64,000 nucleotides of DNA from an uncultured Spirochaetaceae bacterium (lineage in GTDB: Bacteria > Spirochaetota > Spirochaetia > DSM-27196 > SKKC01), in assembly GCA_964565375.1 (NCBI GenBank), contig CAZMEV010000001.1, positions 1,638-65,637 of the forward strand. Direction: 5' to 3'. Each line of letters starts with the position of its first letter. The stretch's first letter is position 1. This document shows, piece by piece, positions 5,857-64,000 of this stretch. The notes beneath the pieces are model-generated. The model saw nothing but the letters and a program-made list of their open reading frames with translations. It did no database searches and had not been told where the DNA came from. Both the position numbers and the translations under genes were made by a program.

Positions 5857-5890
5857 TACACTCACTATACACCCAGGATAGGAGGATACT

Positions 5891-6493: not shown

Positions 6494-6515
6494 AGCATTG
6501 CACGCATTTTCGGGT

Positions 6516-6550: not shown

Positions 6551-6748
6551 TGCGTTTCTCGTTGTGAGACATGGTGCGGCGGGACATCGACCTCCCCCAA
6601 AGTTTCTATTTCCCGTGGCTGCAAGCCGGCATAAGGCAGTTGTCGGCAGGCCGGCTAGTTTCTTCCTCGCAAAGAACCGATAGGAGACTGTCCTTCCTGG
6701 TTTGTCTCCTTGTATCCTTTGAGGAAAGTCCGTTACCTTATTAGATGT

Positions 6749-7693: not shown

Positions 7694-7713
7694 GCGGGGT
7701 ATAAATTACAGAT

Positions 7714-8418
7714 ATGGCACGAGTGTTTGTCATCGAAGATAATCAGCTCATACGTGACGCGGTCAGTCAGTACTTTCAGATTGATGGGGACGAGGTTGTC
7801 GAGTTTCCCCATGCAAAAGGAGTGCTTGACAGCCTCGAAACTCAGGCACCGGATGTTATTATTCTGGACATCATGCTGCCGGATGAGAACGGCTTTGTTC
7901 TCGCAAAGCGGATTCGGCGCAGATCCAGTGTTCCGATTATTTTCCTTACCGCAAAGGAAGCCGAAAGTGATCGCATTACCGGCTTTGAAATCGGTGGCGA
8001 CGACTATGTTGTGAAGCCCTTTTCCACAAAAGAGCTGGTACTTCGCACCCGTGCCCTTCTCAAGCGAGCCCAGGGTGAGGGCGAGGAGGATGAAAGCGAG
8101 ACCGAATGGGAGCTCGACGGAAATCACCTGCTCATTGATACACGACGGCACAGGGCGCTGCTGAACGGGGAAGAATTATCCTTGACGGTAAGCGAATGGA
8201 AGATTCTCGCGTATCTTTCCTACAGGGACCAGGAAGTCTGCTCGCGGCGACAGATTCTCGGGGAATGCCTCGATTATCTTCACGAGGGGCCGGAACGCAC
8301 TGTCGACACGCACATTGCAAATTTACGCGGAAAGCTTGGTGCGAGCGAATGGGTCGAAACGGTTCGCGGATACGGGTATCGGTTCTGTGGTGTGAGGGCT
8401 TCGGAGAAACAGAAGTAG
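7714..8418 (+). CDS. OmpR-family two-component response regulator
   Basis: Receiver domain (VFVIEDN, DVIILDIMLPDENG, KPF) plus a winged-helix output domain (TVDTHIANLRGKL, RGYGYRF). Confidence 0.9.
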   Translation: MARVFVIEDNQLIRDAVSQYFQIDGDEVVEFPHAKGVLDSLETQAPDVIILDIMLPDENGFVLAKRIRRRSSVPIIFLTAKEAESDRITGFEIGGDDYVVKPFSTKELVLRTRALLKRAQGEGEEDESETEWELDGNHLLIDTRRHRALLNGEELSLTVSEWKILAYLSYRDQEVCSRRQILGECLDYLHEGPERTVDTHIANLRGKLGASEWVETVRGYGYRFCGVRASEKQK

Positions 8419-8425
8419 CGGTATC

Positions 8426-9793: not shown

Positions 9794-9848
9794 CCTGAAA
9801 CGCCGGTGTTTGCTCTGTAATACGTAGAATAAGGGTTATTAAGAACAC

Positions 9849-47901: not shown

Positions 47902-48195
47902 TCAGACTTCGGTTATTTCCGCCTCAAATTGAAAGAGGCGGATTCCTTCGTTGGGGAATCGTCCCTTCACCCGCCTGACAGCCGAAACAATCCGTGTCCC
48001 ACTTTCGGCATCTGTATAGAAAAGAAAGAGAATATTCTCCTCAGGCCAGATATGGTCACCGCGTCGTTCGCCGCTGTTACCCACGCCGTGAACACCGGGT
48101 ATCCGTGTGTGATACCCGGCAACGTTTTCTCGAGTGAACTCATCGAGAAGATCCTCCTCGATGGCCCGATTCGCAATGACTTCAGTGCGGGTCAT
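47902..48195 (-). CDS. Small PII-fold-like protein co-translated with the RND pump (transporter-associated)
   Basis: 97 aa. It has a beta-alpha-beta x2-like pattern (TEVIANRAIEEDLLDEF...GYHTRIPGVHGVG...ILFLFYTD...IVSAVRRV). Its start overlaps the RND stop by 4 nt. The family assignment is inferred from pattern and context only. Confidence 0.45.
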   Translation of the reverse strand: MTRTEVIANRAIEEDLLDEFTRENVAGYHTRIPGVHGVGNSGERRGDHIWPEENILFLFYTDAESGTRIVSAVRRVKGRFPNEGIRLFQFEAEITEV

Positions 48196-51100: not shown

Positions 51101-51491
51101 CAAACCGGAAAATGCTCGGCTGATCAGCATCATCCGGCAGTGCGCCCCGAATCTGCTCGAGTCGGTCACGTACATCATTCGCGGCGGCATCCATGTTTGT
51201 TCCCCAGGTAAACTCAAGGGTAATCTGACTGCTGCCACGTGAGGAAGTAGAGCTTATCTGGTTAAGGTTGCTGACGTTACTCAGCGCCCCTTCCAGTGGG
51301 CGGCTCACCGATTCCTCAACCTCTTCCGGACTTGAGCCTTCATATCCCGTCTGAACTATGAGAACCGAGGGCTCGATTTCGGGAAACAGGTCGAGCGGAA
51401 GATTCATTGCCGTATAAATCCCGAACCCGGTAATCAGCGCAAAAATAATGAAAAACGTAGTGGGTCGATGTACGATCGTTCGGGTTAGCAT
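48192..51491 (-). CDS. RND-superfamily efflux permease (AcrB/HAE-like) with an acidic repeat tail
   Basis: MLTRTIVHRPTTFFIIFALI, LDLFPEIEPSVLIVQT, TM4 GVGLLVDNSIVILENI, 1099 aa. Confidence 0.9.
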   Translation of the reverse strand: MLTRTIVHRPTTFFIIFALITGFGIYTAMNLPLDLFPEIEPSVLIVQTGYEGSSPEEVEESVSRPLEGALSNVSNLNQISSTSSRGSSQITLEFTWGTNMDAAANDVRDRLEQIRGALPDDADQPSIFRFDPSLIPIMTLRMAGDRTPEDLRELAEDIVQPEIEQLDGIAATNIDGGRDSVVRVDIQRDRLDAYGLTLSGVQQAIRSQNVRLSGGTLEEGETEYIVETAGRFDTVEELRSAVVSLVSVERPDGPPIQVPVRLGDLGTVEEGFRPESSAVYINGEEGVSVSVQQQSDANAVNAADAVLAQLDSINENLPGDTRLEVVVDTTDIIRNSLRTVSNQAISGGVLAVIVLFFFLRSVKATAVVAVSIPTSIIFALTLMYFFGLTLNLMTLAGLALGVGLLVDNSIVILENIYRYREKGAKLRPAAILGTQEMINAIVAATLTTITVFLPVALFRDQLEFVGELFSGLSFTVVISLSASLMVAIFLVPVLASHYFPLVSRTQRPPRGPLGRLDERMDRMFVALDTRYKYALAAVLRHKAITILVVLALFGGSLALLPRVGFELLPDQEEDFVVIDFELAEGTRLDVTRETLQNFESIIQDEIEGYDDIILEVGGGGFFGGGAANEGSITITLPDFEDRIEQESDIRRILRPHFDRFPGAEITFGEGFGGPGGGPPIDIRVRSNNLDRARQISEQIRSLIASEVPDAVEPELGISEGLPQVDINVDRERVYALGLDMGTIGQEVRANIDGVTASQMEIDGTETDIFVILDQQDRLSIPDLNRIYVESRAGTRIPLSNIATLERTTGPVDIRRVNQRRELRITADVAEGTTAADVEPQIRRLVEAQIPAEDDVTIAFEGELQDIIDYGTTFIGIIIVAILLVYGVMAAQFESFRDPFIIFFSIPLTLIGILGIHDWAGVNLSIFTAVGLVMLIGIVVNNGIVLVDYTNLLRARGLPLVQACVDAGGNRLRPILMTTLTTVLGLMPIAFLGGEGSELIQPIALTVIGGLSVSTLLTLFFVPTLYALFNANDEQRRRKREARLERRFEAHEEVVQPGAELTDDQGLTEGPDDQGLSEGDQDQGLSEGSDAPPEKPEDQS
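48231..48311 (-). repeat. 27-bp in-frame tandem repeat x3 encoding DQGLSEG-type units at the RND C-terminus
   Basis: Units at 48231-48257, 48258-48284 and 48285-48311. Confidence 0.85.
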
Positions 51492-52411
51492 TATTCAGAC
51501 TCCTGTATGTCAAAGTCCGTAACCTGCAGTAATGCCCCCTGCGAGGCAAGATTCTGGCCTCGTGTCACGACGCGATCGCCGGGTTCGAGCCCTTCAACGA
51601 TTTCGACCCTGCCGTCGGCCTCAATACCGAGTTCGACCGGTCGGCGCTCGGCACGATCATCCTCATCAACTATGAAGACGTGACGTTCATCCGCGCGACG
51701 TACTACAGCTCGCTGAGGGACTGTAACGGCATCCGGTCTTTCCTCGGCGATAAGGTCAATTCGAGCGAACATGCCCGGCCGAATGCGCGGGTCAGGTGTA
51801 TCGAACACCATCGTGGTGCCGAGCGAGCGGCTTGTCCGGTCCAGTTGGGGTGCTAATCGCACCACAGAAGCGGAAAACTCTTCTCCCGGTAGAGCATCGA
51901 GGCGAACTGCCGCCTGCTGCCCGAGCGATAGCCCCCCAATAAAGCGCTCCGGAACATAGGTGCTGATCTCCAGATCATCGATCGATGCAACCTGGGCTAC
52001 AGGCGATTGCTGGCTTACGTTCGACCCCTCGCGCATATTAAGCTGCGTAATCGTCCCGGCGATCGGAGAGCGAACTGGTCCGACCGCGAAGCGCTGGCCG
52101 GGACGTGAGGGATCAACCCGCGCAATGACTTCGTCCTTTTCAACCCGGTCACCGATTTCTACGAAGAGCTCAACCACTTCGCCGGCCTGGTCCGGAATAA
52201 CGCCAACGGTTCTCGAAGGCTCGATCTCTCCGCTCAGATTGATGACTTCGGTAATACCGGTCTGTTCAGCCTCTTCCATTTCGACGGCGAGGCGGTCCTC
52301 TTCTTCATCTGCTTCCTCTTCAGCGTCCGGCGAGCAGGCGGCGAATACCGCCACTGTCAGGCCGAGAAGCAGAAATCGTACTGTTAGATACCTTTTGGTG
52401 TTCATCATCAA
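51491..52411 (-). CDS. RND efflux periplasmic adaptor (membrane fusion protein), lipoprotein
   Basis: Lipobox VAVFAAC. Lipoyl-like hairpins (EIGDRVEKDEVIARVDP ... SPIAGTITQLNMREGSNV) and a C-terminal beta-barrel. Confidence 0.85.
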   Translation of the reverse strand: MMMNTKRYLTVRFLLLGLTVAVFAACSPDAEEEADEEEDRLAVEMEEAEQTGITEVINLSGEIEPSRTVGVIPDQAGEVVELFVEIGDRVEKDEVIARVDPSRPGQRFAVGPVRSPIAGTITQLNMREGSNVSQQSPVAQVASIDDLEISTYVPERFIGGLSLGQQAAVRLDALPGEEFSASVVRLAPQLDRTSRSLGTTMVFDTPDPRIRPGMFARIDLIAEERPDAVTVPQRAVVRRADERHVFIVDEDDRAERRPVELGIEADGRVEIVEGLEPGDRVVTRGQNLASQGALLQVTDFDIQESE

Positions 52412-52422
52412 TATATCTCCGT

Positions 52423-53847
52423 CTACTGTGTGTCGGTCAGTTCCGAAACCGGGGTGTCGAGCAGAAATTCAAGATTCACCAGCGCCTCGCGGTAATCAAA
52501 CTGTTCCTGTAGAAGATCAAGCTGTGCGTCGAGAAGGTCAATCTCGGCGTCACGCACATCTGAAATATCGCGCAATCCTGCATCGTATCCTTCTTCTGCC
52601 AGCTCCAGCGCCCGTTCGGCAACTTCAACACTGAACATGACCGATTCCATTGCTTCACGCGTAATTTCAATTGTCTCGAGCAGGGTAAGAAGTCTCGACT
52701 CGACCCCGTCGATCGCCTGTTCGACCGCCACTTCCGCCTGTTCCCGCTGGCGCTCCTGCTCGGCCAGCTCAGTTCTCGTCGAGGAACGCGGGAGCAACGG
52801 GTCGATCGGTACGTTTAACGTAATGCTGAACGCACCGCTGCGTTGCTCCCATTGGTCCAGGTCAAACACATCGCTTGAAAACGGATCACCTTCGAGTGCC
52901 GGATCAATGTTGTAGCCGAACGTAAGCGTGGGAAACATCTGTGACACCGTCGCATCCCGCGCCAGCTCGATCTGATCGATCGAGCGACGTGCCTCCCTGA
53001 TATCCGCGCTACGCCCTATACGTGCACGGAGCTCACGTTCGCTTTCAAGCTCAACCGTTTCGATTCCTATATCGCCGGTAAGCTCAAGCTCTTCCTCGGG
53101 TGGTACTCCGAGAGTAAGGGCGAACTGCCGTATTGCAGCATCATAGGCCTGGCGCTGACGGCGCAGAGCCGGACGCTGATTTTCAAGTGCGACCTGCGTT
53201 GAGAGTAAGGTGAACTCGTCGATAATTCCGTCTTCAAAGTCCTGCTGTGCCTCTTCATAACGCTGTTCGGCTTCTTCGAGTCGGCGTTCGGAAAGCGCAA
53301 TCTGTTCCTGCTGGAGAAGCAGCTCGTAGAATGACAGCCGTACATCGCGTTCAGTTTCTCTTCGCGCCTGCCGGAGATCGAACTCCGCGTCATCGAGCGA
53401 CTGCGTCCGCTGTTCCAACCCGACGAGCATCTGGCGGGTGAGTGTCAGACTTATATCCAGATTCGTGCTCAGGTTCCAGCGGGGCGGATCGTCTGGTTCA
53501 TCAACATCCAGTGCGGTGGGGTCCTCGGTCAGTAGAAATTCTTCGAGTCCCTGAAGGGTCCCCTGGAGATCCGGCGTAGCCTCCGGCTCCACATTCGGGC
53601 GCGCAAGGGTAGAACGGGCGCTGATCTGCGGAAGAAAGACGTTCCAGCGGTCCGAATAGTTGCGCTCGGCGATCATAAGTTCTATTTCCTGCGTGCGGAT
53701 ATTCAGGTTTCGCTGCAGCGCAAGCTCTACCGCAAGGTCGGCGTCGAGTTCGAGTGGTTCCCGGTCCTCTGCGGTCACCATCATAAGTGGCAGAATCAGA
53801 ACGATTGCTGCAATCAGCACTGTTCGAAGAGTAAAACGGATGTTCAT
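52423..53847 (-). CDS. TolC-family outer-membrane efflux protein
   Basis: Signal peptide followed by two OEP repeats with long helices (LDADLAVELALQRNLNIR..., RREAEIDLLDAQLDLLQEQFDY). Confidence 0.85.
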   Translation of the reverse strand: MNIRFTLRTVLIAAIVLILPLMMVTAEDREPLELDADLAVELALQRNLNIRTQEIELMIAERNYSDRWNVFLPQISARSTLARPNVEPEATPDLQGTLQGLEEFLLTEDPTALDVDEPDDPPRWNLSTNLDISLTLTRQMLVGLEQRTQSLDDAEFDLRQARRETERDVRLSFYELLLQQEQIALSERRLEEAEQRYEEAQQDFEDGIIDEFTLLSTQVALENQRPALRRQRQAYDAAIRQFALTLGVPPEEELELTGDIGIETVELESERELRARIGRSADIREARRSIDQIELARDATVSQMFPTLTFGYNIDPALEGDPFSSDVFDLDQWEQRSGAFSITLNVPIDPLLPRSSTRTELAEQERQREQAEVAVEQAIDGVESRLLTLLETIEITREAMESVMFSVEVAERALELAEEGYDAGLRDISDVRDAEIDLLDAQLDLLQEQFDYREALVNLEFLLDTPVSELTDTQ

Positions 53848-54033: not shown

Positions 54034-55329
54034 CTATTGCCTGCCGGGTCTGAACGGAAGCTGCTCGAACATTTCCTTTGTTTGTACGCCGGCGATCGTC
54101 GCCTGCTTTGTGTATTTGGTATGCAGACGCGTGGCGCCCTCGATCAGGATCTGCGAGGCGACGCCGAGTTGAATGGACTGCTGTGCTTCGAGAAATGCCG
54201 CGAACTCGTCGCAGATGCGCACGAGCCCACCGTCGAGCGGCCGGTAGTCGTCGCTGTTGTAGCGATTGTCGATCTCTTCGCTTTCGACCTGCTCGACGCC
54301 CTTAGGACTGCTTATCTTGCCGGTGAACTCATCGTCGATGAAGTACCGCATTTCCGCTGCGATTTCCCTGGTCATGTGCGGGTATATTTCTTCAGCTACC
54401 GTTTCATCTTCGATCTTGCGGACGATTTCCGGTAGACCGGGGGTCGCCGTCTTGGTGGGGGCCACAATGTCGCGGGTAACCGACTCGGGAAGGTCGTGAA
54501 AGAGGCCTGCGAAGAAGTTGTTGTACCGCCGTGTGTGACAGGGGTCACGCTGCTCGGTAAGGAGCAGCGCGAATGTCGCCACCATGAGGGAATGTCCGAG
54601 TACGGCCGTCTCGGGAATGCGGGGCGTACGGCTCCAGCGGGTCTGGTAGCGCAGCCGGTCGGCGACACTGATTACGCGGAACAGGTCAAGTTCGAGAATA
54701 AGCTGCCGCATACCGGCGAGATCGAGAAAGGGTTCCATGCGTTTTCGCAGGTGGTTCTCGATAGCGGGAATACGCGGATCGTGGGAGTTCACACCCTTAA
54801 TGATCTGAAACTCACGGTACGTAGAGTAGCTTCGTGCCGCCTCAAGGATCTGCAGGGAGCGCTCGGCGGGTGTGCGATTGCGTTCCATCGGAATTCGCCC
54901 ACCGGAATGTCCCTCAAGTCCAAGTTCCGGGTCGAGACCGAGCTGCAGGGCGGTCACCGGACGCGAGAAGTACTCGCGGAATCGGGACTCGAGCCCATAG
55001 GGGGCGAGCATGGGGGCCACCGAATCGGCGACCCACTGATTGAGCCTGTGGTATTCATCCGGATGCTCGACTCGAATGCGTCTGTGAACGGTTTCCTTGA
55101 TGTCGGAAAGCGCAATCTTTCGAAGCAGATCGAATACCCCGGTGAAGATAATCGTATCCCAGTCGACCTCGCGACCGTCCTGCTCCTCAAGTTTGCCGAG
55201 AAACCATGCAAGCATCATCGCGAACGACCGCCGGTCCATTTCGTTGAGTTCCATGGGCCGCACGAGGTCATTCCATCGCTTTACCGAAAAGCCTCCGAAG
55301 AGGTGAAGGGCTACGGTCTTTTCGATCAT
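54034..55329 (-). CDS. HD-domain phosphohydrolase with tandem YfbR-like repeats (N-terminal repeat degenerate)
   Basis: The second repeat keeps the metal ligands (TAVLGHSLMVA ... AGLFHDLPESVTRDI). The first repeat has NEMDRRSF / VFDLLRKIALSDI at the equivalent positions. It has a 4-nt overlap with the upstream PtsI-like gene. Confidence 0.7.
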   Translation of the reverse strand: MIEKTVALHLFGGFSVKRWNDLVRPMELNEMDRRSFAMMLAWFLGKLEEQDGREVDWDTIIFTGVFDLLRKIALSDIKETVHRRIRVEHPDEYHRLNQWVADSVAPMLAPYGLESRFREYFSRPVTALQLGLDPELGLEGHSGGRIPMERNRTPAERSLQILEAARSYSTYREFQIIKGVNSHDPRIPAIENHLRKRMEPFLDLAGMRQLILELDLFRVISVADRLRYQTRWSRTPRIPETAVLGHSLMVATFALLLTEQRDPCHTRRYNNFFAGLFHDLPESVTRDIVAPTKTATPGLPEIVRKIEDETVAEEIYPHMTREIAAEMRYFIDDEFTGKISSPKGVEQVESEEIDNRYNSDDYRPLDGGLVRICDEFAAFLEAQQSIQLGVASQILIEGATRLHTKYTKQATIAGVQTKEMFEQLPFRPGRQ

Positions 55330-57086
55330 AGCTGCGAGCGTAGTGGATTTGTTTCTGAAACACCAGCCACGCCAAGCGTGCTTGCTACATCACCAAGCAG
55401 GGCGTTCATTTCTTCCATAGTACTGATCCGCGTCATATCTTCGGCGATACCCCGGCACCACGCTTCATCGAGCCGGTCGATGTGCTCGGCGGTCGCGGTG
55501 AGCTGTCCTGGTGCCACACTCACCGCATTCACACCGATCCCGCGGTAGAATGGCAGCAGGAGCGGGTCAGAGGCGGCCTCTCCGCATACCGAAACCGGGA
55601 CGGTGGCCTTCCGCGCACCCACTACGATGCGCCGCACGGTCCGTGCGATCACCGGATGACGTGTGCGATACAGATCCGTAAGGCGGGCATTCGTGCGGTC
55701 GACAGCCAGCATGTACATGACCAGATCGTTCATGCCGATGGACAGGAAATCTGTCTCGGCGGCGAGTTCCTCAGCGACGACCGCCGCAGAGGGGATCTCG
55801 ATCATGGCACCGAGTCTGGGAGCCGCGTTGTGGGAGAGCTCCTCGTCTTCGAGTTCGGCGATGCACCGGTTAAGTTCCCCGCGGGCTTCGCGTACTTCCT
55901 CAACGGTGGAAACCATGGGAAGCATGATATGAAGGTCGGCATCCGGCGCTGCACGGAGCATTGCCCGCAACTGAGTGCGGAACATTGGTCTGTTTGCGAG
56001 CGAAAACCGTATACCGCGAACGCCAAGAAACGGATTGTCCTCGGGCACTTCGCCGGCGAGGAGTTTATCGCCGCCTATGTCCGCGGTACGGAGCGTGACC
56101 TGGCGTTCGGGAAAGAGCGCAACGATATGACGATACATGCGCATCTGCGTTTCCTCATCGACCTGGCCCTGGCGAATAATGAACGGAAACTCGCTTCTGT
56201 ACAGGCCAATGCCCTCGGCAAGGTCTCGGGCTGCGTACGCGTCGGCAAGAATGTTTACGCTTGCAAGCAGACGCATCCCGCGGGTGCGTGTATGGAACTC
56301 GATCTGGCGGTCGACGGAGTCCTGGATGCTCTGTGAGCGGTTTACCCGGCATGCACGATCTTGCTCGCTCTCGTGCCCGATAGGAAGAATATGCCCACGG
56401 TCACCGTCGAGCGTCACAGTCGTCTCATTGGGTACACTGAGAATCTCGCGCGTTGAGGTAGTTATTACAGGAATCCCCAGCGATCGCGCCAGAATAGACA
56501 GATGTGCGGTGAGCGGAATGTTCACGAGCACAACACCGGCAGCGCCGTCTACGGCGAGCCGCAGCAGCTCCGATGGAAAGACATCGGTGAGTACCACGAT
56601 GCGCCCTGAAACAAATGCCCGCTCAGGCGGTTCGGCCGACAGGTTGGTCAGCAACCGGTAACCGAGATCACGTACGTCTTCCGATTTCTCAGCGGTGCGG
56701 TCATTGTCCCGACTGCAAAAGGCCTGAACGAAGGTTTCGATCGTGTTCGTCACAGCTCGCTCGGGAGCCATGCCTTCGCTGACAAGTCTCTGGATTTCGC
56801 CCGAAAAACTCTCATCCTCCAGCATGAGAAGATGGGCGCGAAAGACCAGTTCCACAATGTCGCTGAACCGGTTACCGCCGTCTTCTATGAGCTCGGTAAG
56901 CTGTTCACGGGTACGTGTGAACGCCCGTTGCAGGCGCTCGACGGCGGCATTACTCGATGAGTCTTCCGGCGCAGCGGCCGGTTCATGGCGGTGCGGATCC
57001 TGGTCGAATTGCAGAAGCGGACCGACGGCACTGCCCTGGGAGAGCGAGATACCTCTGATTGGTGCTGTTCGTTTATCAGACCCCAC
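55326..57086 (-). CDS. ptsI: Phosphoenolpyruvate-protein phosphotransferase (PTS enzyme I-like, PEP-utilising enzyme)
   Basis: Phospho-His loop LTAHLSILARSLGIPVI and PEP-binding TIM barrel motifs LYRSEFPFI, IGGDK, GMNDLVMYMLAVDR, VCGEAASDP. The symbol denotes the family only; I saw no HPr or EII gene nearby. Confidence 0.8.
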   Translation of the reverse strand: MGSDKRTAPIRGISLSQGSAVGPLLQFDQDPHRHEPAAAPEDSSSNAAVERLQRAFTRTREQLTELIEDGGNRFSDIVELVFRAHLLMLEDESFSGEIQRLVSEGMAPERAVTNTIETFVQAFCSRDNDRTAEKSEDVRDLGYRLLTNLSAEPPERAFVSGRIVVLTDVFPSELLRLAVDGAAGVVLVNIPLTAHLSILARSLGIPVITTSTREILSVPNETTVTLDGDRGHILPIGHESEQDRACRVNRSQSIQDSVDRQIEFHTRTRGMRLLASVNILADAYAARDLAEGIGLYRSEFPFIIRQGQVDEETQMRMYRHIVALFPERQVTLRTADIGGDKLLAGEVPEDNPFLGVRGIRFSLANRPMFRTQLRAMLRAAPDADLHIMLPMVSTVEEVREARGELNRCIAELEDEELSHNAAPRLGAMIEIPSAAVVAEELAAETDFLSIGMNDLVMYMLAVDRTNARLTDLYRTRHPVIARTVRRIVVGARKATVPVSVCGEAASDPLLLPFYRGIGVNAVSVAPGQLTATAEHIDRLDEAWCRGIAEDMTRISTMEEMNALLGDVASTLGVAGVSETNPLRSQL

Positions 57087-57099
57087 GATACTTCAAATG

Positions 57100-58452
57100 C
57101 TACGCCGTCGGTTTTCGGTCGGTCAACCGAGACTTTCGCTTCTTTCCCGGGACGCCGGAGGGGCTACGGCTGCTCGCTCTGCCGACGACACGGGAAACCA
57201 TCAGACTAAGATATTTGTGAACGAGGCGAAACGGACGAAGCACAATGTGAAGCGGGCGCAGTGCGGGAGGAAGAGGCCAGAGGTCCTGTTCGCGGTCGGT
57301 AGGTTGTGTTATGTGGGCAAGGACGGCGGGAAGGTACGCGAACCGGTCGGCGGTCTGCTCGCGGCTTTGAAGGTATGCGGCGGTGCGGGCGATCGGATTT
57401 TCGCGGCTTGTTCCGTCGAATGCCCGAATTCGTTCCGCCGCTTTCCGGGCCAAGGCGCGTGCATGGGGGTCGGTCGCCGCCCGTTCGAGCAGCTCGTCGG
57501 CAATGGGCGCGTCGAGCAGGGAAAAGGCGAGTAGAATACCAGTGTGAAGCAGACGGAGCGTGCCCGTCGCCCTCGCGCGGGCGTGGAGCTCGCGGCACAT
57601 CTCGGGCGTCAGGCGCGCGGTAAGAACCGCAATATCACAGACCATATACAGGCGCATCCAGTCATGCTTGCCCCCGTGATGCGCGGCGAGATATACGATC
57701 TCGTCGGTCGGATCGAGCGCTCGAACATCCCTGCCCATAATTTCGACCGTGGTCGCGCGCGCGATCGCCGCTTCCGGGTCAAGCCCGAACGCCACGTCCG
57801 GGGGAAGAAACCGCCAATGCAGCTCTACGTGAATTCCGGTACGCGGATGGTCCAGATTGTACTCGCAGTTATCGACGAGAAGCCGTCCGAGCGGGCGTGC
57901 AGCCGACGCAGCCTCGGCGATATAGCCGTCGTTTCGAAGTATTTCTATGGCATCCCGAATGGTCGCCGGAGGCAGCAGAAAATCGAGATCCCGGAAAGAC
58001 CGACGCAGTATACTCCCGTAGCCGCGCTCGGCGAGCGCCGGGCCCTTCATGACCGCGGCCCGGATCCCGCACGCCTCGAAACGCGCGAGAATCCGCAGCA
58101 GCTCCAGCGTCATTCCGAGCACATACCGTCTGTCGGCCCGGGCGGGTGACTGCGGATCTTCGTGAAGTCCGGCAACTCCATGAAGATTTTTAAGGTTGAT
58201 GTATTCCTCTTCGTCGCCGGCGTGAGTCGCGGATTTCGCGTTCCCGCGAAATCCCAGGTCCGATGCGCTTTCACAGAGCAGGCGTTCGAACGTTCCGTTT
58301 CCGGCCACCGCCCGGGAGCGAACCGAGGCCCGGATTGCCCGAAAACGCCCGTTCGCTCCGACGGCGATCGGGCATTGATCCGGATTCCCGGCCGACCCTG
58401 ACGCTCCGGTCGTTGGTGCGGGCAGGTGCCAGGCGGCTACTTCCGGTCTCAT
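57100..58452 (-). CDS. Nucleotidyltransferase-family protein (uncharacterised NTase type often seen in RiPP clusters)
   Basis: ILARFEACGIRAAVMKGPALAE...FRDLDFLLP...GIHVELHW pattern of minimal NTase-fold proteins. I chose ATG 58452 because it forms an ATGA overlap with the ABC exporter stop. Confidence 0.65.
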   Translation of the reverse strand: MRPEVAAWHLPAPTTGASGSAGNPDQCPIAVGANGRFRAIRASVRSRAVAGNGTFERLLCESASDLGFRGNAKSATHAGDEEEYINLKNLHGVAGLHEDPQSPARADRRYVLGMTLELLRILARFEACGIRAAVMKGPALAERGYGSILRRSFRDLDFLLPPATIRDAIEILRNDGYIAEAASAARPLGRLLVDNCEYNLDHPRTGIHVELHWRFLPPDVAFGLDPEAAIARATTVEIMGRDVRALDPTDEIVYLAAHHGGKHDWMRLYMVCDIAVLTARLTPEMCRELHARARATGTLRLLHTGILLAFSLLDAPIADELLERAATDPHARALARKAAERIRAFDGTSRENPIARTAAYLQSREQTADRFAYLPAVLAHITQPTDREQDLWPLPPALRPLHIVLRPFRLVHKYLSLMVSRVVGRASSRSPSGVPGKKRKSRLTDRKPTA

Positions 58453-60404
58453 ACCGGCACTCCCTGCAGCTGATTCAACTGCATGCGGTACATGGTTTCG
58501 TACAATCCTCCGCGTGCGCACAGCTCCTCGTGGGTTCCCTCTTCGGTTATACGGCCGTCGCGCATGACATAGATCCGGTCGGCCATGCGCGCGGCTGCCG
58601 CCCGGTGGGTTACCAGAAGGACGCTGCGGTGCTCGGCCCAGAGACGAATCGTAGCAAGGAGCCGGGCCTCGGAGTCCGGATCAAGCCCACTTGTCGGCTC
58701 GTCGAGAATCGCGAAGCTCGAGTCGCGGTAGAAGGTCCGCGCGAGTGCGAGCTTCTTCCACTGGCCTCCACTCGGTTCAATGCCTTCCTCAAGAAATCTT
58801 CCGAGCTGTGTCTTCCACCCCGAGGGCAGCGACGCAATGAAGCTTCCGGCACACGCGGAATCAGCGGCGGCGTCGAGCGCCGTGCGGTCGGGCGGTCTGT
58901 CGCTTCGGCCGAACCAGAGATTCTCCTCGGCGGTGTAGTGATACTGCGCGTAGTCCTGGAACAGGGCGGTTATCGAGTTCCACCAGAGATCTTTCGGTAT
59001 GCCGGAAAGCGGCGTGTCGCCGTAGCGGATCGTTCCCCGGTCGGGCTCGTAGAAGCCGCAGGCGAGTTTCATGAGTGTGGATTTGCCGGCCCCGTTGTCG
59101 CCGACGAGGGCCACAAGCTCCCCGGGGCCCATCGACAGCGATACGCGGTCGAGCACAAGGCGATCGGTTCCGGGGTAGGAGAAGGAGACATCCCGGAGCG
59201 TCAGCGGGGCCGGCCGGACACGGGCCGCGTTATGAGCGTTGCTGCCGCGGGTACTCCGGGTGGACGTCGCGGCGCCGGACTCCGGTTCGTCGGCCGGTGT
59301 CCGCGTATTTGCGGCGCCGTCGTCGGTGGGAAGACGAAGGAACTCGAATACGGTTGCGAGAAAGAGGTTGCTTTCGTACAGTCCGTTAACAGCTCCCGAC
59401 AGTTCACTTGCGAGTGCCTGGCCCTTCTGCACCGCCTGCAGAAGCAGTACGAAATCGCCGAGCGTCGTTTCGCCGCGCAGCGCCGCTAACGCCACGACGG
59501 CCACAACGGCGAAAACGACAAGTGTCTGAAGGGAATAGGCGATTGCTTCTCCCTTGGATCGGGCCGCTGCGAGCGCGAGACGCTCCCCGCGAAGCTCGTT
59601 GCGTTTCTCCGCCGAGCGGCGTGCGAGCAGACGGCCAAGGCCGAAAAGCCGAAGCTCCTTGGCGTGTTCCCGTCCGGTGAGAAGCCAGTTAAGGTAGACC
59701 ACGTGGCGCTCGGCCGACGTGCGTCGCATTCGCCAGCGGTAATGGCGACGTGAGTGAAGCACACGTGCGAGCACGAGCGGCAGCGAGGCAACGAGCAGGG
59801 CGGGAAGGCCGTACCACGGAAGGACGGCGATAAGGATAACCGCGATGCCCGCAAGCGAAAGTCCGGTGCGAAGCAGAAGCATAAGCTCGTCTACAACCTG
59901 CGTCGGGCGAAACGGAGCCTCCTCCTGGGCCCGGTGTAACGCGTCAAAGAATGCCGGGCGCTCGTAGTACGTCAGCGGGACATCTATCGATTTCGCATGG
60001 ATTCGTGACTGTATGAAATCCCCGAGTGTGTGTGCCTGCATTTCCCGGACGTACAGTGCGGCTGATTTCAGAATCATCGAGACGATCGTGGCCCCTGCGG
60101 CGATAGCAATAAGGCCGAGCACGCGCGCCCCGGTGGTCTCAAGCCATGCGTTTGATCCGGGAAACGAGGTTACTCCCTCGGTTATGGTATTGACGATCAG
60201 ACGGACTACGTACAGCGGAACGAGCGGAACGAGCGCCTGCGCGGTGACCACGCACATCGAGAGCAGGGTGACGCCGGGAGCACTTTGCCACACCAGCGAA
60301 AGCGCTTGGAGAAGGTGAAAGCGTCCGCCGTTGCTGGTTACGGTCGTGCGAGCCGCAGTCGACGGTTCGTCCGGCTTTGCGGAGCGAAACCCTTCCGCGC
60401 TCAT
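58449..60404 (-). CDS. Fused TMD-NBD ABC exporter (lasso-peptide D-type candidate)
   Basis: Six N-terminal TM segments, Walker A GDNGAGKST, signature PSGGQWKKLALA, Walker B FAILDEPTSGLD. ATGA overlaps on both sides. Confidence 0.9.
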   Translation of the reverse strand: MSAEGFRSAKPDEPSTAARTTVTSNGGRFHLLQALSLVWQSAPGVTLLSMCVVTAQALVPLVPLYVVRLIVNTITEGVTSFPGSNAWLETTGARVLGLIAIAAGATIVSMILKSAALYVREMQAHTLGDFIQSRIHAKSIDVPLTYYERPAFFDALHRAQEEAPFRPTQVVDELMLLLRTGLSLAGIAVILIAVLPWYGLPALLVASLPLVLARVLHSRRHYRWRMRRTSAERHVVYLNWLLTGREHAKELRLFGLGRLLARRSAEKRNELRGERLALAAARSKGEAIAYSLQTLVVFAVVAVVALAALRGETTLGDFVLLLQAVQKGQALASELSGAVNGLYESNLFLATVFEFLRLPTDDGAANTRTPADEPESGAATSTRSTRGSNAHNAARVRPAPLTLRDVSFSYPGTDRLVLDRVSLSMGPGELVALVGDNGAGKSTLMKLACGFYEPDRGTIRYGDTPLSGIPKDLWWNSITALFQDYAQYHYTAEENLWFGRSDRPPDRTALDAAADSACAGSFIASLPSGWKTQLGRFLEEGIEPSGGQWKKLALARTFYRDSSFAILDEPTSGLDPDSEARLLATIRLWAEHRSVLLVTHRAAAARMADRIYVMRDGRITEEGTHEELCARGGLYETMYRMQLNQLQGVPV

Positions 60405-61474
60405 CCTCGACTCCGGTTCATTGAGCTGCAGGTACTGCCTTCGCGGCTCGAACCGCTTGAATGCCGGACATTTCTCACAACGTCGAAGGGCTCAGACAAC
60501 ACTCGTGAGTCTGCGGCGGAACCACGGAGATCGGCGGTCAGGATCTCGGCGACCGATGGAAGTGCGTCATATCCTGTCGGGTAGCGAAGGCGCATTACCG
60601 GAACGTGTTCCACCAGCGTTGAGAACCGGTGGAATCTCCTCTCGCGAAGCGAGTGAAGATCGCTGACGAGCTCCGCGAGGAACGCCGACCGGATAAGCCC
60701 GATAATCGCGACCCCGGGCGGAATGCGTTCGAGTTCTACCGCGCTGCCGGGTTGCCGGCGATCGAGAAGATAGATACGGTGCACAGGTCGCGCAGATGTT
60801 TCGAACGATCCAAGATCGCGAGCCGGTACACTGAGCTTCCCGTATCCCGGATGAACTCGCGTGTAGCCTTCGCATGTACCCACGAACAGTTCAGCCTGCT
60901 CGGGCGTCAACTTGATCTGCGGAAACGCCGGGCGACAACAGGTGTATCCTCCGCACGGTTCAACGGCAGCAATGTCGTCCCCGAGCAGGGAGAAGCCTCG
61001 ATTGAGAAGGGAAGCAACAAGGGTGCTTTTGCCGCCGCCCCGATCGGCAAGAAACAGCGCTGCCCGGCCATCGAGTGCGAGCGCCCCACCGTGAAGTGCC
61101 GGTATTCCCGACCGCTCGAGATACCATGCCAGCACATGACCGAGCAGACAGATTTCGACCATATGCGCGAGCGACGGCTTGTGAAGCGCGCAGGTAATAC
61201 GTCCCGGATACAGCGAAAAATCCGCTATTCGCGGGAATCGCATACGGTGTCCGGCCGGAATCGAGTAAACCGAAACCGCTGCTTCGCCGTATCGGTTCGT
61301 CTCCCGGGACGCCGCGATACGCATTTCCTGTGAATCGAACGGAAGGTGAGTACCGAAACTGCATTCAAAGATAAGGTCGACCGGTGCGCCGGAATCGGCA
61401 CGGTGCATCGGTGTCCTGAACTCATACTCCGTTTCCACGCACATGCCGAAAAGCAGCACCTTCCTTCTGTTCAC
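60401..61474 (-). CDS. HPr kinase/phosphorylase-like serine kinase (RiPP tailoring kinase candidate)
   Basis: LHGGALALDGRAALFLADRGGGKSTLVASLLNRGFSLLGDDI matches the P-loop core of the HprK C-terminal domain. It lacks the HprK N-terminal domain. Confidence 0.75.
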   Translation of the reverse strand: MNRRKVLLFGMCVETEYEFRTPMHRADSGAPVDLIFECSFGTHLPFDSQEMRIAASRETNRYGEAAVSVYSIPAGHRMRFPRIADFSLYPGRITCALHKPSLAHMVEICLLGHVLAWYLERSGIPALHGGALALDGRAALFLADRGGGKSTLVASLLNRGFSLLGDDIAAVEPCGGYTCCRPAFPQIKLTPEQAELFVGTCEGYTRVHPGYGKLSVPARDLGSFETSARPVHRIYLLDRRQPGSAVELERIPPGVAIIGLIRSAFLAELVSDLHSLRERRFHRFSTLVEHVPVMRLRYPTGYDALPSVAEILTADLRGSAADSRVLSEPFDVVRNVRHSSGSSREGSTCSSMNRSRG

Positions 61475-62865
61475 GATACATTTCCTTCATGCATGGGGTC
61501 CTCAATCTGTTCCTCGGGGAACGATTCGCAACAACGATCGGCGCTGTCGGACGAACGGAATTCGAGGAGACCGAATTCGGACAGTTCCGTGAGCAGGTTT
61601 TCTACATCATGGCATACCGTTTCACGGTCTCCCTGATACTGCGACAGAATCTCATCCACACACCCGTCGACGTTCCCATGCCGGATAATTCCGTACCACA
61701 TGGAAACGGCGCTTCCGCTCAGTTCGAAGTAGTCGACCGCGCCCGGCCGACCTTCGGATCGCGGCGTAATACGGGCAAGCTGAAGCCCCTGGTCCGACGG
61801 GCACCATACGACCCCGTCAGCCGCTCTAATCGACCCGTTTCCGCCGTGAATAAGATCCGGTGTCGTTTTTGACAGCGTTTCGAGTTCCTCGACACCGTTT
61901 AATTCCGCACGGCGGATTCGAAGCCGGTTCGATAGGCATCGATTCGCCGGCGCAAGATACCACCCGTCCTCGATTTCCCCGGTTTCCTGGTTCCAGGCCC
62001 GGCTGTCGGGTTCATGCCAGGCGAACGACACATACTCGGGAATGCCGATCCAGTAGGCGTCGGTGAACATCCTGCTTCGTTCCGCATACCACTCCGGATA
62101 GCGGTTCACGAAGCGTGCAGGCGCGAGATCCTCGAGTGGGTGTGCCGTTATGCACGCCTGAACCGCCGGTTCGTTCTCTTCGATCGACCGACACAGATCT
62201 GTCGGCGCAAAAAAGGGACAGAAAACGATGCCGCCTCCAGCCTGCAATGGCTCCGGCGGGGCGTTGCCTGCGTCGGACCTGTGCATCGCTCGCAGTGTTT
62301 CCCGGAAACGAATCCCCGAAAGCGCGCAGTCGTCCACGATACAGATAGTTCTGTCGTTTTTCGGAATATTCCGGGTGCCCGCGATGAATATCTGATCCGG
62401 CTTCAAATCGAGAATGTAGGCGAGCAGCCCCATGACCACGATTCCGCCCCGGGGCATTGCCGCGAAGTTCCAGCTGTGAATCTCTTTATTTCCGAAGCGG
62501 GCGATAAGAATGTCCGCCAGACCGAGTGCGGCCGCCTCGGCGTCGCCGTACTCGACGAAGGTATGCCTCGGAAGAATTTCTTCAAGTGTTTCCCTGAGTG
62601 TGATCAGTTGTCCGGTGTGTCCGGGTACATCCGGTGCGAACACGGCGAGCAGCGGTGATGGAGCGGGGCGTGCGACCAGACGCAACCCCTCCATGCGTTT
62701 CCAGGCAGCGTTTGCCTGTATTGTCATACAGAGGGCCCGAAGTCCGCTCTCAACCGAGTCAGCGGCCGTGAAATCGAGAAGGTGCTCGACGGCACACGTG
62801 CCGTCGAGCAGGGGAACAACGTGGAACGGGGGTGGCGTGGTATCTGCGGTATTCACAGGACTCAC
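61471..62865 (-). CDS. Fusion protein: phosphoribosyltransferase-like domain plus a C-terminal PqqD-like RiPP recognition element
   Basis: PRTase motifs MPRGGIVVMGLLA and ICIVDDCALSGIRF. The C-terminal ~90 aa VDYFELSGSAVSMWYGIIRHGNVDGCVDEILSQYQGDRETVCHDVENLLTELSEFGLLEF read as PqqD. The start may be GTG 62865 or GTG 62856. Confidence 0.65.
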   Translation of the reverse strand: MSPVNTADTTPPPFHVVPLLDGTCAVEHLLDFTAADSVESGLRALCMTIQANAAWKRMEGLRLVARPAPSPLLAVFAPDVPGHTGQLITLRETLEEILPRHTFVEYGDAEAAALGLADILIARFGNKEIHSWNFAAMPRGGIVVMGLLAYILDLKPDQIFIAGTRNIPKNDRTICIVDDCALSGIRFRETLRAMHRSDAGNAPPEPLQAGGGIVFCPFFAPTDLCRSIEENEPAVQACITAHPLEDLAPARFVNRYPEWYAERSRMFTDAYWIGIPEYVSFAWHEPDSRAWNQETGEIEDGWYLAPANRCLSNRLRIRRAELNGVEELETLSKTTPDLIHGGNGSIRAADGVVWCPSDQGLQLARITPRSEGRPGAVDYFELSGSAVSMWYGIIRHGNVDGCVDEILSQYQGDRETVCHDVENLLTELSEFGLLEFRSSDSADRCCESFPEEQIEDPMHEGNVS

Positions 62866-62903: not shown

Positions 62904-63098
62904 TTACCTGCCGCCGGCGTTCGTAATACTGCCGGACTCACGCCCGCGCGCTTGTCCGGGAAGAAGATCCGAGCCGGGATTTGTCTGTCCGACCTGTGTC
63001 AGTTCGGCAATAGACCCCCAGCGCCTGAGACGCGGGCTCGTGTACGGTTTGCGTACCGAGTCACGGGACAAGCCTGACGTTTGATCTGTCATGGACAT
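62904..63098 (-). CDS. Lasso-peptide precursor candidate (64 aa from ATG 63098; 62 aa from ATG 63092)
   Basis: AGGAGG lies just upstream of the ATGs at 63098 and 63092. The leader contains Y-T-S-P-R-L-R-R-W-G-S-I-A-E-L-T-Q, an exact fit to YxxPxLx3Gx5Tx. It is followed by VGQTNPGSD..., with an Asp positioned for an 8- or 9-residue macrolactam. The ORF sits between the cyclase and RRE genes. Confidence 0.7.
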   Translation of the reverse strand: MSMTDQTSGLSRDSVRKPYTSPRLRRWGSIAELTQVGQTNPGSDLLPGQARGRESGSITNAGGR

Positions 63099-63267
63099 GG
63101 TCCTCCTCGTAAACACGATTAACATGTCCCCTCGCGGACATTCTCACAATACTGCGGAAGTATGATTTTGCGGGTATCGATGGTTGGTATAATCGCTCAT
63201 TCTTTCGGTGATGCCGGGCGGTGAATCACGACCTGACGGTTAGTCCCTTCTCATGCCGTCCGCGGCG

Positions 63268-64000
63268 CTAATCCCAGTGGGATCTCAGCCACATCTCCAG
63301 CGAAAGGGTCGACCAGAGATCGAACCGCGGCATGTCACCGTTGACGAAGCGGTTAAACTGTTCGGTAAGTGCCGCTTCATCGACATAGCCGAGCGCTGCG
63401 CATCGGCTGTCGGTGATCAATTCGCGCACCTTCTCCCGTGCCTCGAAGCGAAGGGTGTGCAGGTAGTGCGGTTCGGGGGAAACCTTGTCGGCGGCAAGCC
63501 GGGCTTCCTCCGGCATGATTCCGGTCCCCGCGCGTTTTGCCAGGCGCTTCACTTCGAGCGCGCGATCGACTATGTGCTGGGGACATGCGAGAATAAACTC
63601 GGCTATGCGCCTGTCGCTCCACGGGTCGGCGAATCCCATTCCGGATTCCGCGGTAAGTCGTTCCGTATAGGCGACGCCGCGGGTCACCAGGGGGGAGTAG
63701 ATGTGAATATAGCGATTCCGGGCGTCCGACCGGGGCCAGACATCGGCGCGCACACGCACCGGATCACGATCGGGAAGCCCTGCCCGGGCGAGAAAAGATC
63801 GTCTTACGTGACAGGCCGCCCTCGCCTGAGGTCCGGAGAATCGTCCGTTTCGAAGTGCTATAGCTATCTCCCTCGGAACGAGGTCCGATAATGCGGGTCG
63901 GAGAAGATAACGCAGGAACGAAGTAGTGCGGCGTTCGTTGAATATCCGTGACAACTCGTTGAGCTCGCGAACCGTATCACGTACGTGCCCGCTCCTAAGA
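63268..64000 (-). CDS. Asparagine-synthetase-like lasso cyclase, C-terminal part; 5' end is outside the window
   Basis: The frame stays open to nt 64000, beyond the TTG used by the ORF track. The tail GFADPWSDRRIAEFILACPQH...KRLAKRAGTGIMPEE matches the conserved C-terminal region of AsnB-type/lasso macrolactam synthetases. Confidence 0.75.
   Translation of the reverse strand, partial: LRSGHVRDTVRELNELSRIFNERRTTSFLRYLLRPALSDLVPREIAIALRNGRFSGPQARAACHVRRSFLARAGLPDRDPVRVRADVWPRSDARNRYIHIYSPLVTRGVAYTERLTAESGMGFADPWSDRRIAEFILACPQHIVDRALEVKRLAKRAGTGIMPEEARLAADKVSPEPHYLHTLRFEAREKVRELITDSRCAALGYVDEAALTEQFNRFVNGDMPRFDLWSTLSLEMWLRSHWD

What the first reader, a model, noticed from the sequence alone, without database searches (positions are those of the whole stretch)
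62904..63098. Precursor peptide: perfect YxxPxLx3Gx5Tx leader, but a Val (not Gly) at the predicted core position 1 and a long 29-aa core without a C-terminal Ser
The translation from ATG 63098 is MSMTDQTSGLSRDSVRKPYTSPRLRRWGSIAELTQ followed by VGQTNPGSDLLPGQARGRESGSITNAGGR.

The Y-T-S-P-R-L-R-R-W-G-S-I-A-E-L-T-Q stretch fits the published lasso leader consensus at every fixed position, placing the cleavage after TQ. That predicts Val1 with an Asp9 isopeptide partner (Asp codon 62967-62969). If cleavage occurs one residue later, Gly1-Asp8 gives the most classical ring, but with the conserved Thr at -3.

Either way the core is longer than most known lasso peptides. It is Gly/Arg-rich and ends in GGR. 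Kinase-containing clusters described so far modify a C-terminal Ser, so the kinase target here (Ser8, Ser20, Ser22 or Thr) would be new.
Basis: partly seen in the sequence, partly recalled or inferred. Interest (0 to 1): 0.65.

Follow-up and report, generated by a model that had tools for sequence, protein, structure and literature searches.

The report
Lasso peptide precursor with Val start
The small gene is a real precursor of a knotted "lasso" peptide; its odd features (Val first residue, no final Ser) are shared by a widespread, unstudied lasso family that carries an uncharacterised phosphoribosyltransferase-like tailoring protein.

Summary
The likelier start is ATG 63092 (62 aa), not 63098. 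It lies between a lasso cyclase gene and a 461-aa protein that fuses a phosphoribosyltransferase (PRTase) fold to a lasso B1-type leader-binding domain (RRE). An HprK-like kinase, an ABC exporter and a PsmN-like nucleotidyltransferase follow.

Homologous precursors sit at the same position in more than 70 loci from many phyla. Their shared features:
- Thr(-2) in 70 of 71.
- A non-Gly first core residue in 49 of 71 (Val 17, Thr 16).
- Asp9 in 37 of 38 "x1-Gly2" cores.
- A C-terminal Ser in only 5 of 71.
- A Gly-Ser/Thr pair in the tail in 66 of 71. Here it is Gly21-Ser22-Ile23.

Val1-Asp9 is therefore the better-supported ring, though Gly-Asp8 is not excluded. Ser22 is the best candidate modification site; Ser8 and Ser20 are not conserved.

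No B2 leader peptidase is encoded in the window or upstream of the cyclase.

Verdict: a genuine lasso precursor, and a new variant of a known kind. The most novel element is the neighbouring PRTase-RRE protein, not the peptide.

The parts
62904..63098 (-). Precursor gene (A), stop codon included. It is 64 aa from ATG 63098. The more likely start is ATG 63092 (62 aa).
   Evidence: NCBIfam lasso leader hit.
62994..63092 (-). Leader peptide (33 aa from ATG 63092). The motif YTSPRLRRWGSIAELTQ occupies positions -17 to -1, with Thr at -2.
   Evidence: The -17..-12 YxxPxL rule is from PMC10368454.
62907..62993 (-). Predicted 29-aa core VGQTNPGSDLLPGQARGRESGSITNAGGR. Val1 is 62993-62991, Asp9 is 62969-62967, and Gly21-Ser22-Ile23 is 62933-62925.
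63102..63106 (-). Shine-Dalgarno GGAGG, 3 nt before ATG 63098 and 9 nt before ATG 63092.
   Evidence: The same element is present in L008.
63268..64000 (-). 3' part of the lasso cyclase gene (C), cut by the window end. The full 630-aa protein is in L001 3352-5244.
   Evidence: Full-length best NCBIfam hit is NF033535 lasso cyclase, E=5e-74.
61471..62856 (-). 461-aa fusion protein. The type I PRTase-fold domain spans about residues 100-280 (62017-62559). The C-terminal lasso B1-type RRE spans about residues 335-435 (61552-61854).
   Evidence: TbiB1, E=2.4e-12; XGPRT/HGXPRT prob 1.0; TbiB1 TM 0.79.
60401..61474 (-). HprK-like lasso peptide kinase (K). Its start overlaps the stop of the fusion gene by 4 nt. 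The catalytic motif is H128...G146xG148-K149-S150...D166-D167.
   Evidence: The motif definition is from PMC10368454.
58449..60404 (-). ABC exporter (D), a fused permease/ATPase.
57100..58452 (-). NTP_transf_5 nucleotidyltransferase (N), the family named for PsmN. The start overlaps the stop of D.
   Evidence: (PF14907, E=1.6e-40). PsmN function is from PMC6993621.

Best explanation
The ORF encodes the precursor of a class II-type lasso peptide made by a C-A-(PRTase-RRE)-K-D-N operon.

Proposed steps:
1. The leader motif YxxPxLx3Gx5Tx is bound by a B1-type RRE. Here the only RRE is the C-terminal domain of the 461-aa fusion protein.
2. The leader is removed after Thr(-2)-Gln(-1). The peptidase is most likely a B2-type enzyme encoded outside this window.
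3. The cyclase joins the alpha-amine of Val1 to the side chain of Asp9, giving a 9-residue ring with a 20-residue loop and tail.
4. Before leader removal, the HprK-like kinase, recruited through the fusion protein's RRE, modifies the family-invariant Ser22 in Gly21-Ser22-Ile23. The PRTase-fold domain and/or the PsmN-like nucleotidyltransferase then elaborate it further.
5. The bulky group may help lock the thread.
6. The ABC transporter exports the product.

Shown here: the coding status of the ORF, its family, its synteny, the domain identities and the conservation pattern. Inferred: the cleavage site, ring, modification site, chemistry and order of steps.

Sub-probabilities: lasso precursor about 0.95; Val1-Asp9 about 0.7; Ser22 as tailoring site about 0.55.
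For: Precursor identity:
- It lies immediately downstream of the cyclase.
- It has the strict leader motif and an NCBIfam leader hit above cut-off.
- The same small gene sits between C and the fusion gene in related contigs and in most of the 80 genome loci plus 9 metagenome loci.
- Core codons 1-23 show 15 synonymous against 2 non-synonymous differences.

Cleavage after Thr-x:
- Thr(-2) is present in 70 of 71 precursors.
- Tyr sits at -17, as in the rule used and experimentally confirmed for BsfA.
- In homologous pairs the non-Gly residue occupies the same column as Gly1: L052 SGQAGTQD against L071 GSSSGSAD, and L088 NILNGTQD against L092 GTFNGTQD.
- Eleven cores have no Gly at position 1 or 2.
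- Litchfieldella qijiaojingensis has a Val-type precursor together with canonical B2 and B1 genes.
- Pseudomycoidin is proven to be Ala1-Asp9 by NMR, and paeninodin also cyclises from an N-terminal Ala.

Ser22:
- A Gly-Ser/Thr pair beyond position 9 occurs in 66 of 71 cores.
- It is invariant in the Val-type alignment, while the loop between Asp9 and it varies from 4 to about 16 residues.

Kinase: the BsfK catalytic residues are present with identical spacing. BsfK needs its RRE protein.

Fusion protein. The fusion and kinase genes are adjacent in 68 of 79 loci that have enough sequence to show it.
Against: - In x1-Gly2 cores and in Gly1 cores alike, the invariant Gly usually lies 7 residues before the Asp (G-x6-D). 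This is what one would also see if Val were the last leader residue.
- As far as I recall, no characterised lasso peptide starts with Val. This could not be checked.
- No B2 peptidase or separate B1 is found in the 64-kb window or in the 3.3 kb upstream of the cyclase, so the processing enzyme is unknown.
- Nothing shows which enzyme acts on Ser22 or what is attached.
- The structural model of the fusion protein is only moderate (mean pLDDT 59.5).
Confidence: 0.6

Rival explanations
1. The ring is Gly-Asp8 (8 residues). Val is the last leader residue, so the conserved Thr sits at -3 and the peptidase cuts one residue later than in other lasso systems.
For: Gly at the second position is invariant in all 38 x1-Gly2 cores. 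The spacing Gly-x6-Asp equals that of the Gly1-Asp8 cores of the same family, including the optional extra acidic residue just before the acceptor. Gly1-Asp8 is the most classical lasso ring. No B2 gene is nearby, so the usual Thr(-2) rule might not apply to the unknown peptidase.
Against: - Thr at -3 has no precedent, whereas Tyr at -17 and Thr at -2 hold with Val as residue 1.
- Homologous pairs place non-Gly residues in the Gly1 column.
- Ring sizes of both 8 and 9 occur among closely related cores that lack Gly altogether: L054, L069 and L074 against L091 and L078.
- L052 (SGQAGTQD) would get a 7-residue ring under this rule.
- Related kinase-type peptides cyclise from Ala1 to Asp9.
Confidence: 0.22
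2. The cluster is a degenerate or incomplete remnant. Without B1/B2 the precursor is not matured into a lasso, and the peptide is either unprocessed or only a modified linear or branched-cyclic peptide.
For: No B2 or B1 is present in the window or upstream. B2 is detectable in 24 of 37 related loci with at least 6 kb on both sides. Pseudomycoidin made without its tailoring genes was not a threaded lasso (PMC6993621, section title seen).
Against: - All genes are intact and translationally coupled.
- Precursor and fusion genes are conserved with mainly synonymous change across three lineages that share the same B-less layout around C-A-fusion-K.
- Thirteen of 37 well-flanked loci, including cultured Halomonas, also lack a nearby B2, so a distant B2 or another peptidase is common.
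- Pseudomycoidin forms in E. coli and B. subtilis without B1/B2.
- A B-less cyanobacterial C/A/K cluster has been noted before.
Confidence: 0.12
3. The ORF is a chance open frame and the motif match is fortuitous.
For: The ORF is short (62-64 aa) and has no Pfam hit.
Against: The motif is expected 0.11 times per window and is found once, exactly next to the cyclase. The NCBIfam leader model scores above its cut-off. The ORF is conserved in synteny in more than 70 loci, and its substitutions are mainly synonymous.
Confidence: 0.01

Closest known systems
Paeninodin / pseudomycoidin clusters of Firmicutes (padeCAKB1B2D, psmCAKB1B2ND)
   Same: - The gene order starts C-A.
- There is an HprK-like peptide kinase, an NTP_transf_5 gene (PsmN) and an ABC exporter.
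- The first core residue is not Gly (Ala), and the ring closes on Asp9.
   Different: - Those peptides are phosphorylated, and then hexosylated, on an obligatory C-terminal Ser. Here the C-terminus is Arg and the conserved Ser is internal.
- Separate B1 and B2 genes are present there and absent here.
- Those clusters have no PRTase-fold protein.
- Residue 1 is Val here.
bsf cluster of Bradymonas sediminis (BsfA/BsfK/BsfB1/BsfB2/BsfN)
   Same: - It is a lasso cluster from a Gram-negative bacterium with K and N genes.
- The kinase acts on an internal Ser of the linear precursor and depends on the RRE protein.
- The kinase catalytic motif is the same.
- YxxPxL lies at -17..-12.
   Different: - BsfA has Ile, not Thr, at -2.
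- Its ring is Gly1-Asp8.
- The target is Ser3 inside the ring, not a tail Ser.
- B1 is a free protein and B2 is present.
B-less C/A/kinase cluster of Stanieria cyanosphaera PCC 7437, noted in PMC6993621
   Same: It has a cyclase, a precursor and a PsmK homologue without B genes. Our cyclase and precursor score best or weakly against NCBIfam's cyanobacterial lasso models.
   Different: It is only mentioned, not characterised. Whether it holds a PRTase-RRE gene is unknown to me. It carries a recognisable glycosyltransferase.
Caulonodins IV-VII (Ser1/Ala1 lasso peptides)
   Same: They set the precedent that lasso cyclases can use a non-Gly N-terminus (title of Zimmermann et al. 2014, cited). Their x1-Gly2 starts with a 9-residue ring are recalled from memory.
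   Different: They have no kinase, their acceptor is Glu, and canonical B proteins are present.

Membership tests
Lasso peptide precursor (A gene) | A small ORF adjacent to a lasso cyclase (Asn-synthase-like C gene). | tested here: met
   The ORF starts about 170 nt downstream of the cyclase stop. The full cyclase's best hit is NF033535, E=5e-74.
Lasso peptide precursor (A gene) | A leader with YxxPxLx3Gx5Tx and Thr at -2. | tested here: met
   All fixed positions match. NF033521 scores 20.3 bits against a cut-off of 19. The motif occurs once in the window against 0.11 in shuffles.
Lasso peptide precursor (A gene) | An Asp or Glu acceptor at core position 7-9. | tested here: met
   Asp9 is present, and it is invariant in 37 of 38 x1-Gly2 homologues.
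Lasso peptide precursor (A gene) | A leader-binding B1/PqqD-type RRE encoded in the cluster. | tested here: met
   The C-terminal domain of the 461-aa protein matches TbiB1 (5v1u) at E=2.4e-12 and TfuB1. Foldseek gives TM 0.79 to TbiB1. It is fused to another domain rather than free.
Lasso peptide precursor (A gene) | A B2 (transglutaminase-like) leader peptidase encoded in the cluster. | tested here: not met
   An iterated B2 profile (32 members, validated by NF033537) finds nothing in the window or L001. The rest of the genome could not be searched.
Lasso peptide precursor (A gene) | The mature product is a threaded macrolactam. | not testable with these tools
   This needs MS/MS, NMR or a carboxypeptidase/heat assay.
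Paeninodin-type phosphorylated lasso peptides | An HprK-like kinase with the catalytic His, P-loop GxGKS and Asp-Asp. | tested here: met
   H128, G146, G148, K149, S150, D166 and D167 have the BsfK spacing. There is a weak HprK P-loop match.
Paeninodin-type phosphorylated lasso peptides | A conserved C-terminal Ser as the phosphorylation site. | tested here: not met
   The core ends in Arg. Only 5 of 71 family members end in Ser.
Paeninodin-type phosphorylated lasso peptides | A PsmN-like NTP_transf_5 gene (optional feature of the family). | tested here: met
   PF14907, E=1.6e-40.
Type I phosphoribosyltransferases (for the neighbouring fusion protein) | The PRTase fold with a PRPP loop (acidic pair-x3-S/T-G) and a PPi loop (K/R-G-G). 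| tested here: inconclusive
   Foldseek top hits are XGPRT/HGXPRT at probability 1.0, but on a model of mean pLDDT 59.5. The loops P-R-G-G and D-D-C-A-L-S-G are invariant. Pfam PRTase models score only below their cut-offs. Catalysis was not tested.

The most novel reading that the evidence does not exclude
The PRTase-fold/RRE fusion protein, working with the adjacent kinase, installs a post-translational modification not yet known in RiPPs on the invariant tail Ser. One candidate is a phosphoribosyl or ribose-phosphate-linked group derived from PRPP. That group would serve as the steric lock of a lasso whose tail is otherwise Gly/Ser-rich. The same family would also supply the first lasso peptides cyclised from Val or Thr.
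Probability: 0.3. Interest if true: 0.8.

Novelty: new variant of a known kind. Interest (0 to 1): 0.55.

Why it matters
Lasso peptides are valued as stable scaffolds and antibiotics, and each new tailoring reaction widens what can be made.

- This gene marks a family found in at least 90 species-level genomes. The fusion protein has about 400 cluster representatives at 50% identity.
- In the two family members checked that carry a source name, public records call the key extra enzyme only a 'PqqD family protein'.
- The family predicts three things that can be tested in cultured Halomonas and Litchfieldella strains: rings that start with Val or Thr, a conserved internal Ser modification site, and an RRE fused to a PRTase fold.
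- Roughly a third of the well-flanked clusters, including this one, have no nearby leader peptidase. This bears on the open question of whether B2 is universally required.

Tried and rejected
- Exact look-up of the 64-aa product found nothing. The 62-aa form is the one on record.
- The CN_hydrolase (a Cys amidase fold with a signal/TM segment) and the 131-aa helical protein upstream of the cyclase were considered as substitute peptidases. They recur only in this lineage and L008, not in other family loci, so they were dropped.
- The Pfam 'ScmC' faint hit on the kinase led nowhere, and the literature search for it was uninformative.
- The paeninodin JBC paper (PMC4919450) is not held. Its core sequence is therefore cited only from memory.
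- Literature searches for PRTase or ribosyl chemistry in lasso or RRE contexts found nothing relevant. The 'Val1' search returned only Val1x matches.
- The kinase and nucleotidyltransferase have no informative solved relatives by sequence.
- No Rfam family occurs in the window. There is no terminator near the gene, and only one weak promoter-like site after its stop.
- The GC profile shows no island signature.
A 5-sequence alignment worked.
- The organism could not be named. The best genome-collection match to the fusion protein is only 39% identical.

Full report
**1. The observation**

The Asp9 codon is at 62967-62969, as stated. The stretch YTSPRLRRWGSIAELTQ satisfies every fixed position of YxxPxLx3Gx5Tx.

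- The strict pattern occurs once in the six-frame translation of the window, against 0.11 per shuffled window.
- The NCBIfam lasso-leader model NF033521 matches residues 19-38 above its curated cut-off, 20.3 against 19 bits.
- Public gene calls use the second ATG (63092, 62 aa). That start lies 9 nt after the GGAGG at 63106-63102. Homologue L006 has no upstream in-frame ATG, and its start aligns with our second ATG.
- A 29-aa core is long but within the reported 13-33 aa range (PMC13352647).

**2. The neighbourhood**

All genes lie on the minus strand and are tightly packed or overlapping. In order:

- The 3' end of a cyclase gene. Its full 630-aa product, recovered from an identical contig (L001), is best matched by the lasso cyclase model NF033535 (E=5e-74).
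- The precursor.
- A 461-aa protein.
- A 357-aa HprK-like protein.
- An ABC exporter.
- An NTP_transf_5 nucleotidyltransferase.
- A PtsI-like enzyme I.
- An HD-domain protein.

*The 461-aa protein.* It is a fusion.
- Its C-terminal ~100 residues are a lasso B1-type RRE. A profile search of the PDB gives TbiB1 at E=2.4e-12, and also TfuB1.
- Its central part has a type I phosphoribosyltransferase fold. On an AlphaFold model of moderate quality (mean pLDDT 59.5, core blocks 70-90), the top Foldseek hits are XGPRT/HGXPRT at probability 1.0 and target TM-score 0.6-0.68. TbiB1 matches the C-terminal domain at TM 0.79.
- The loops P-R-G-G and D-D-C-A-L-S-G are invariant in the six-sequence alignment. 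From general knowledge of type I PRTases, they correspond to the PPi loop and the PRPP loop.
- The two family members checked that carry a source name are called only 'PqqD family' proteins.

*The 357-aa protein.* It carries the catalytic signature defined for lasso peptide kinases (His, GxGKS, Asp-Asp) with exactly the BsfK spacing: H128, G146, G148, K149, S150, D166, D167.

*Missing genes.* An iterated B2 profile was validated on a Litchfieldella B2 by NF033537. It finds no B2 leader peptidase and no separate B1 in the 64-kb window or in the 3.3 kb upstream of the cyclase.

**3. Relatives**

The precursor itself has one more distant hit in the protein collection (61% identity). Homologues of the fusion protein led to further contigs.

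- A scan of one genome per species returned 90 relatives, of which 80 loci were fetched. They include cultured Halomonas and Litchfieldella strains, soda-lake Spirochaetaceae MAGs, Gemmatimonadota, Acidobacteriota, Chloroflexota, cyanobacteria and others.
- An exhaustive profile search finds 404 cluster representatives at E<=1e-30.
- The fusion gene is next to a kinase homologue in 68 of 79 loci that have enough sequence to show it. It usually follows C and A directly.
- B2 is detectable within 6-10 kb in 24 of 37 well-flanked loci and absent in 13.
- Where B1 and B2 are present with a single cyclase (for example L016, L027, L041, L057, L059), the fusion/kinase pair is an addition to the core machinery, not a replacement.

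**4. The precursor family**

A leader-motif scan finds a precursor just upstream of the fusion gene in most loci. I tabulated 71 of them:

- Thr(-2) in 70.
- First core residue: Gly 22, Val 17, Thr 16, Leu 5, Ala 4, Ser 2, Glu 2, and Tyr, Gln and Asn 1 each.
- In the 38 cores of type x1-Gly2, Asp9 is present in 37.
- Only 5 of 71 end in Ser.
- 66 of 71 carry a Gly-Ser/Thr pair after position 9.

In the Val-type subfamily the alignment shows these invariant residues: Tyr, Pro, Trp-Gly, Thr(-2), Gly2, Asp9 and the Gly-Ser-(Ile/Val) element. That element is often followed by x-Pro-Pro-Gly. The loop between Asp9 and this Ser varies from 4 residues (L023, L046) to about 16.

In our peptide the conserved pair is Gly21-Ser22, followed by Ile23. 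Ser8 is Ala, Asp or Gly in homologues. Ser20 is Gly or Pro.

At the DNA level, core codons 1-23 differ from L006 by 15 synonymous and 2 non-synonymous changes, whereas the last six residues and the N-terminal part of the leader vary freely. It fails: the homologous clusters carry this same gene at this same place.

**5. Which residue starts the ring**

In both the x1-Gly2 and the Gly1 cores, the invariant Gly usually lies seven residues before the acceptor Asp. Four observations favour cleavage after Thr-x, and hence Val1-Asp9:

- **Leader spacing.** Tyr of YxxPxL sits at -17 only if Val is +1. This spacing rule was confirmed by in vitro B2 cleavage for BsfA.
- **Homologous pairs.** Near-identical leaders are followed by cores in which a non-Gly residue occupies the Gly1 column with the same Asp8: SGQAGTQD against GSSSGSAD, and NILNGTQD against GTFNGTQD. 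Eleven cores have no Gly at either of the first two positions.
- **A canonical B2 next to a Val-type precursor.** Litchfieldella qijiaojingensis carries both a Val-type precursor and canonical B2 and B1 genes.
- **Experimental precedent.** The kinase-associated peptides already studied cyclise from Ala1, and for pseudomycoidin an Ala1-Asp9 NOE was observed.

I put Val1-Asp9 at about 0.7 and Gly-Asp8 at about 0.2. Only mass spectrometry can decide.

**6. How it most likely works**

The steps below are inferred, not shown.

- The RRE domain of the fusion protein binds the leader.
- The kinase, translationally coupled to the fusion gene, phosphorylates the linear precursor. BsfK and PadeK also act on linear precursors, and BsfK is strongly accelerated by its RRE protein.
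- Ser22 is the only hydroxyl residue conserved across the family, so it is the likely site.
- PsmN-type enzymes add hexose to the phosphoserine of pseudomycoidin. A homologue is present here.
- The chemistry of the PRTase-fold domain is unknown. Retention of both signature loops suggests binding of PRPP or a related ribose-phosphate ligand.
- The Ser sits at a variable distance from the ring but always precedes Ile or Val, and the tails are otherwise poor in bulky residues. A modified Ser might therefore serve as the steric lock. This extends an idea voiced for the hexosylated C-terminus of pseudomycoidin.
- Leader removal needs a peptidase that is not encoded nearby. The near-universal Thr(-2) argues for a B2-type enzyme elsewhere in the genome. 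However, pseudomycoidin can be made without B1/B2, and a B-less cyanobacterial cluster has been noted.

**7. Comparison with what is known**

This is a lasso precursor by every sequence criterion except the local presence of B2.

- It resembles the paeninodin/pseudomycoidin type in the C-A start, the kinase, the PsmN-like gene, and a non-Gly residue 1 with Asp9. It fails that type's defining C-terminal Ser.
- It resembles the bsf system in having an internal Ser target and RRE dependence. It differs in the site, in Thr against Ile at -2, and in ring size.
- I found no paper in the held library that describes a PRTase-RRE protein in lasso or other RiPP pathways. That library is incomplete.

**8. 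Verdict**

The features it flagged as oddities of one gene are hallmarks of a broad, uncharacterised lasso subfamily. The peptide is a new variant of a known kind. The element with the most potential for new chemistry is the adjacent PRTase-RRE/kinase module and its conserved Gly-Ser target.

Noticed in passing
window 54034-57086 (minus strand): A PtsI-like enzyme I (586 aa, TIGR01417 above cut-off) lies 13 nt after the nucleotidyltransferase gene. An HD-domain protein (431 aa, YfbR-like) overlaps the enzyme I gene by 4 nt. This pairing with a lasso cluster was seen only in this lineage: the only enzyme I hits were in the window, in L001, and in an unrelated position in L044.
   Followed up: partly
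window 48192-53847 (minus strand): An RND efflux set (OEP 474 aa, membrane-fusion protein 306 aa, AcrB-like pump 1099 aa) lies directly downstream of the HD gene on the same strand. It could be an export or immunity function, or merely a neighbour.
   Followed up: no
L011 9641-9763 (GCA_044866285.1): A second precursor lies in tandem with the Ser-type one: MKTKRPYSKPILSRWGTVRDLTR|GISVLGVPIDVIGGSTG. Its only acidic residue near the N-terminus is Asp10, which would imply a 10-residue ring.
   Followed up: no
L047 182-420: A precursor-like ORF directly upstream of a fusion gene has a perfect leader, but its core has no Asp or Glu at all (VAAGNGYNGSVVPGNGSNNSNGYTPVNGGKTLSWWQKR). It cannot form the usual isopeptide ring.
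   Followed up: no
L022 and L023 (Litchfieldella rifensis, L. anticariensis), 1-11200: This is a double cluster. The first part is C, then three or four precursors that end in Ser (paeninodin-like), then B1-B2-N-D. It is followed immediately by a second C, a Val-type precursor, and the fusion and kinase genes. The only detected kinase gene next to the lasso genes may therefore serve two precursor types.
   Followed up: partly
L070, L072: Two contigs binned as archaeal MAGs (Methanospirillaceae, Methanobacteriota) carry lasso genes with the fusion gene. L070 has B1-B2-C-A-A-fusion. This is either a rare archaeal lasso cluster or a binning error.
   Followed up: no
L001 1704-3280 and L008 1681-3357: A 131-141-aa helical protein with no family hit and a CN_hydrolase with an N-terminal hydrophobic segment precede the cyclase gene on the same strand. 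This holds in both close lineages but in no other family locus.
   Followed up: yes
fusion protein family: About 400 cluster representatives at 50% identity exist. Of ten checked, the two with a public name are called only 'PqqD family protein/chaperone', so the PRTase-fold domain goes unannotated there.
   Followed up: partly
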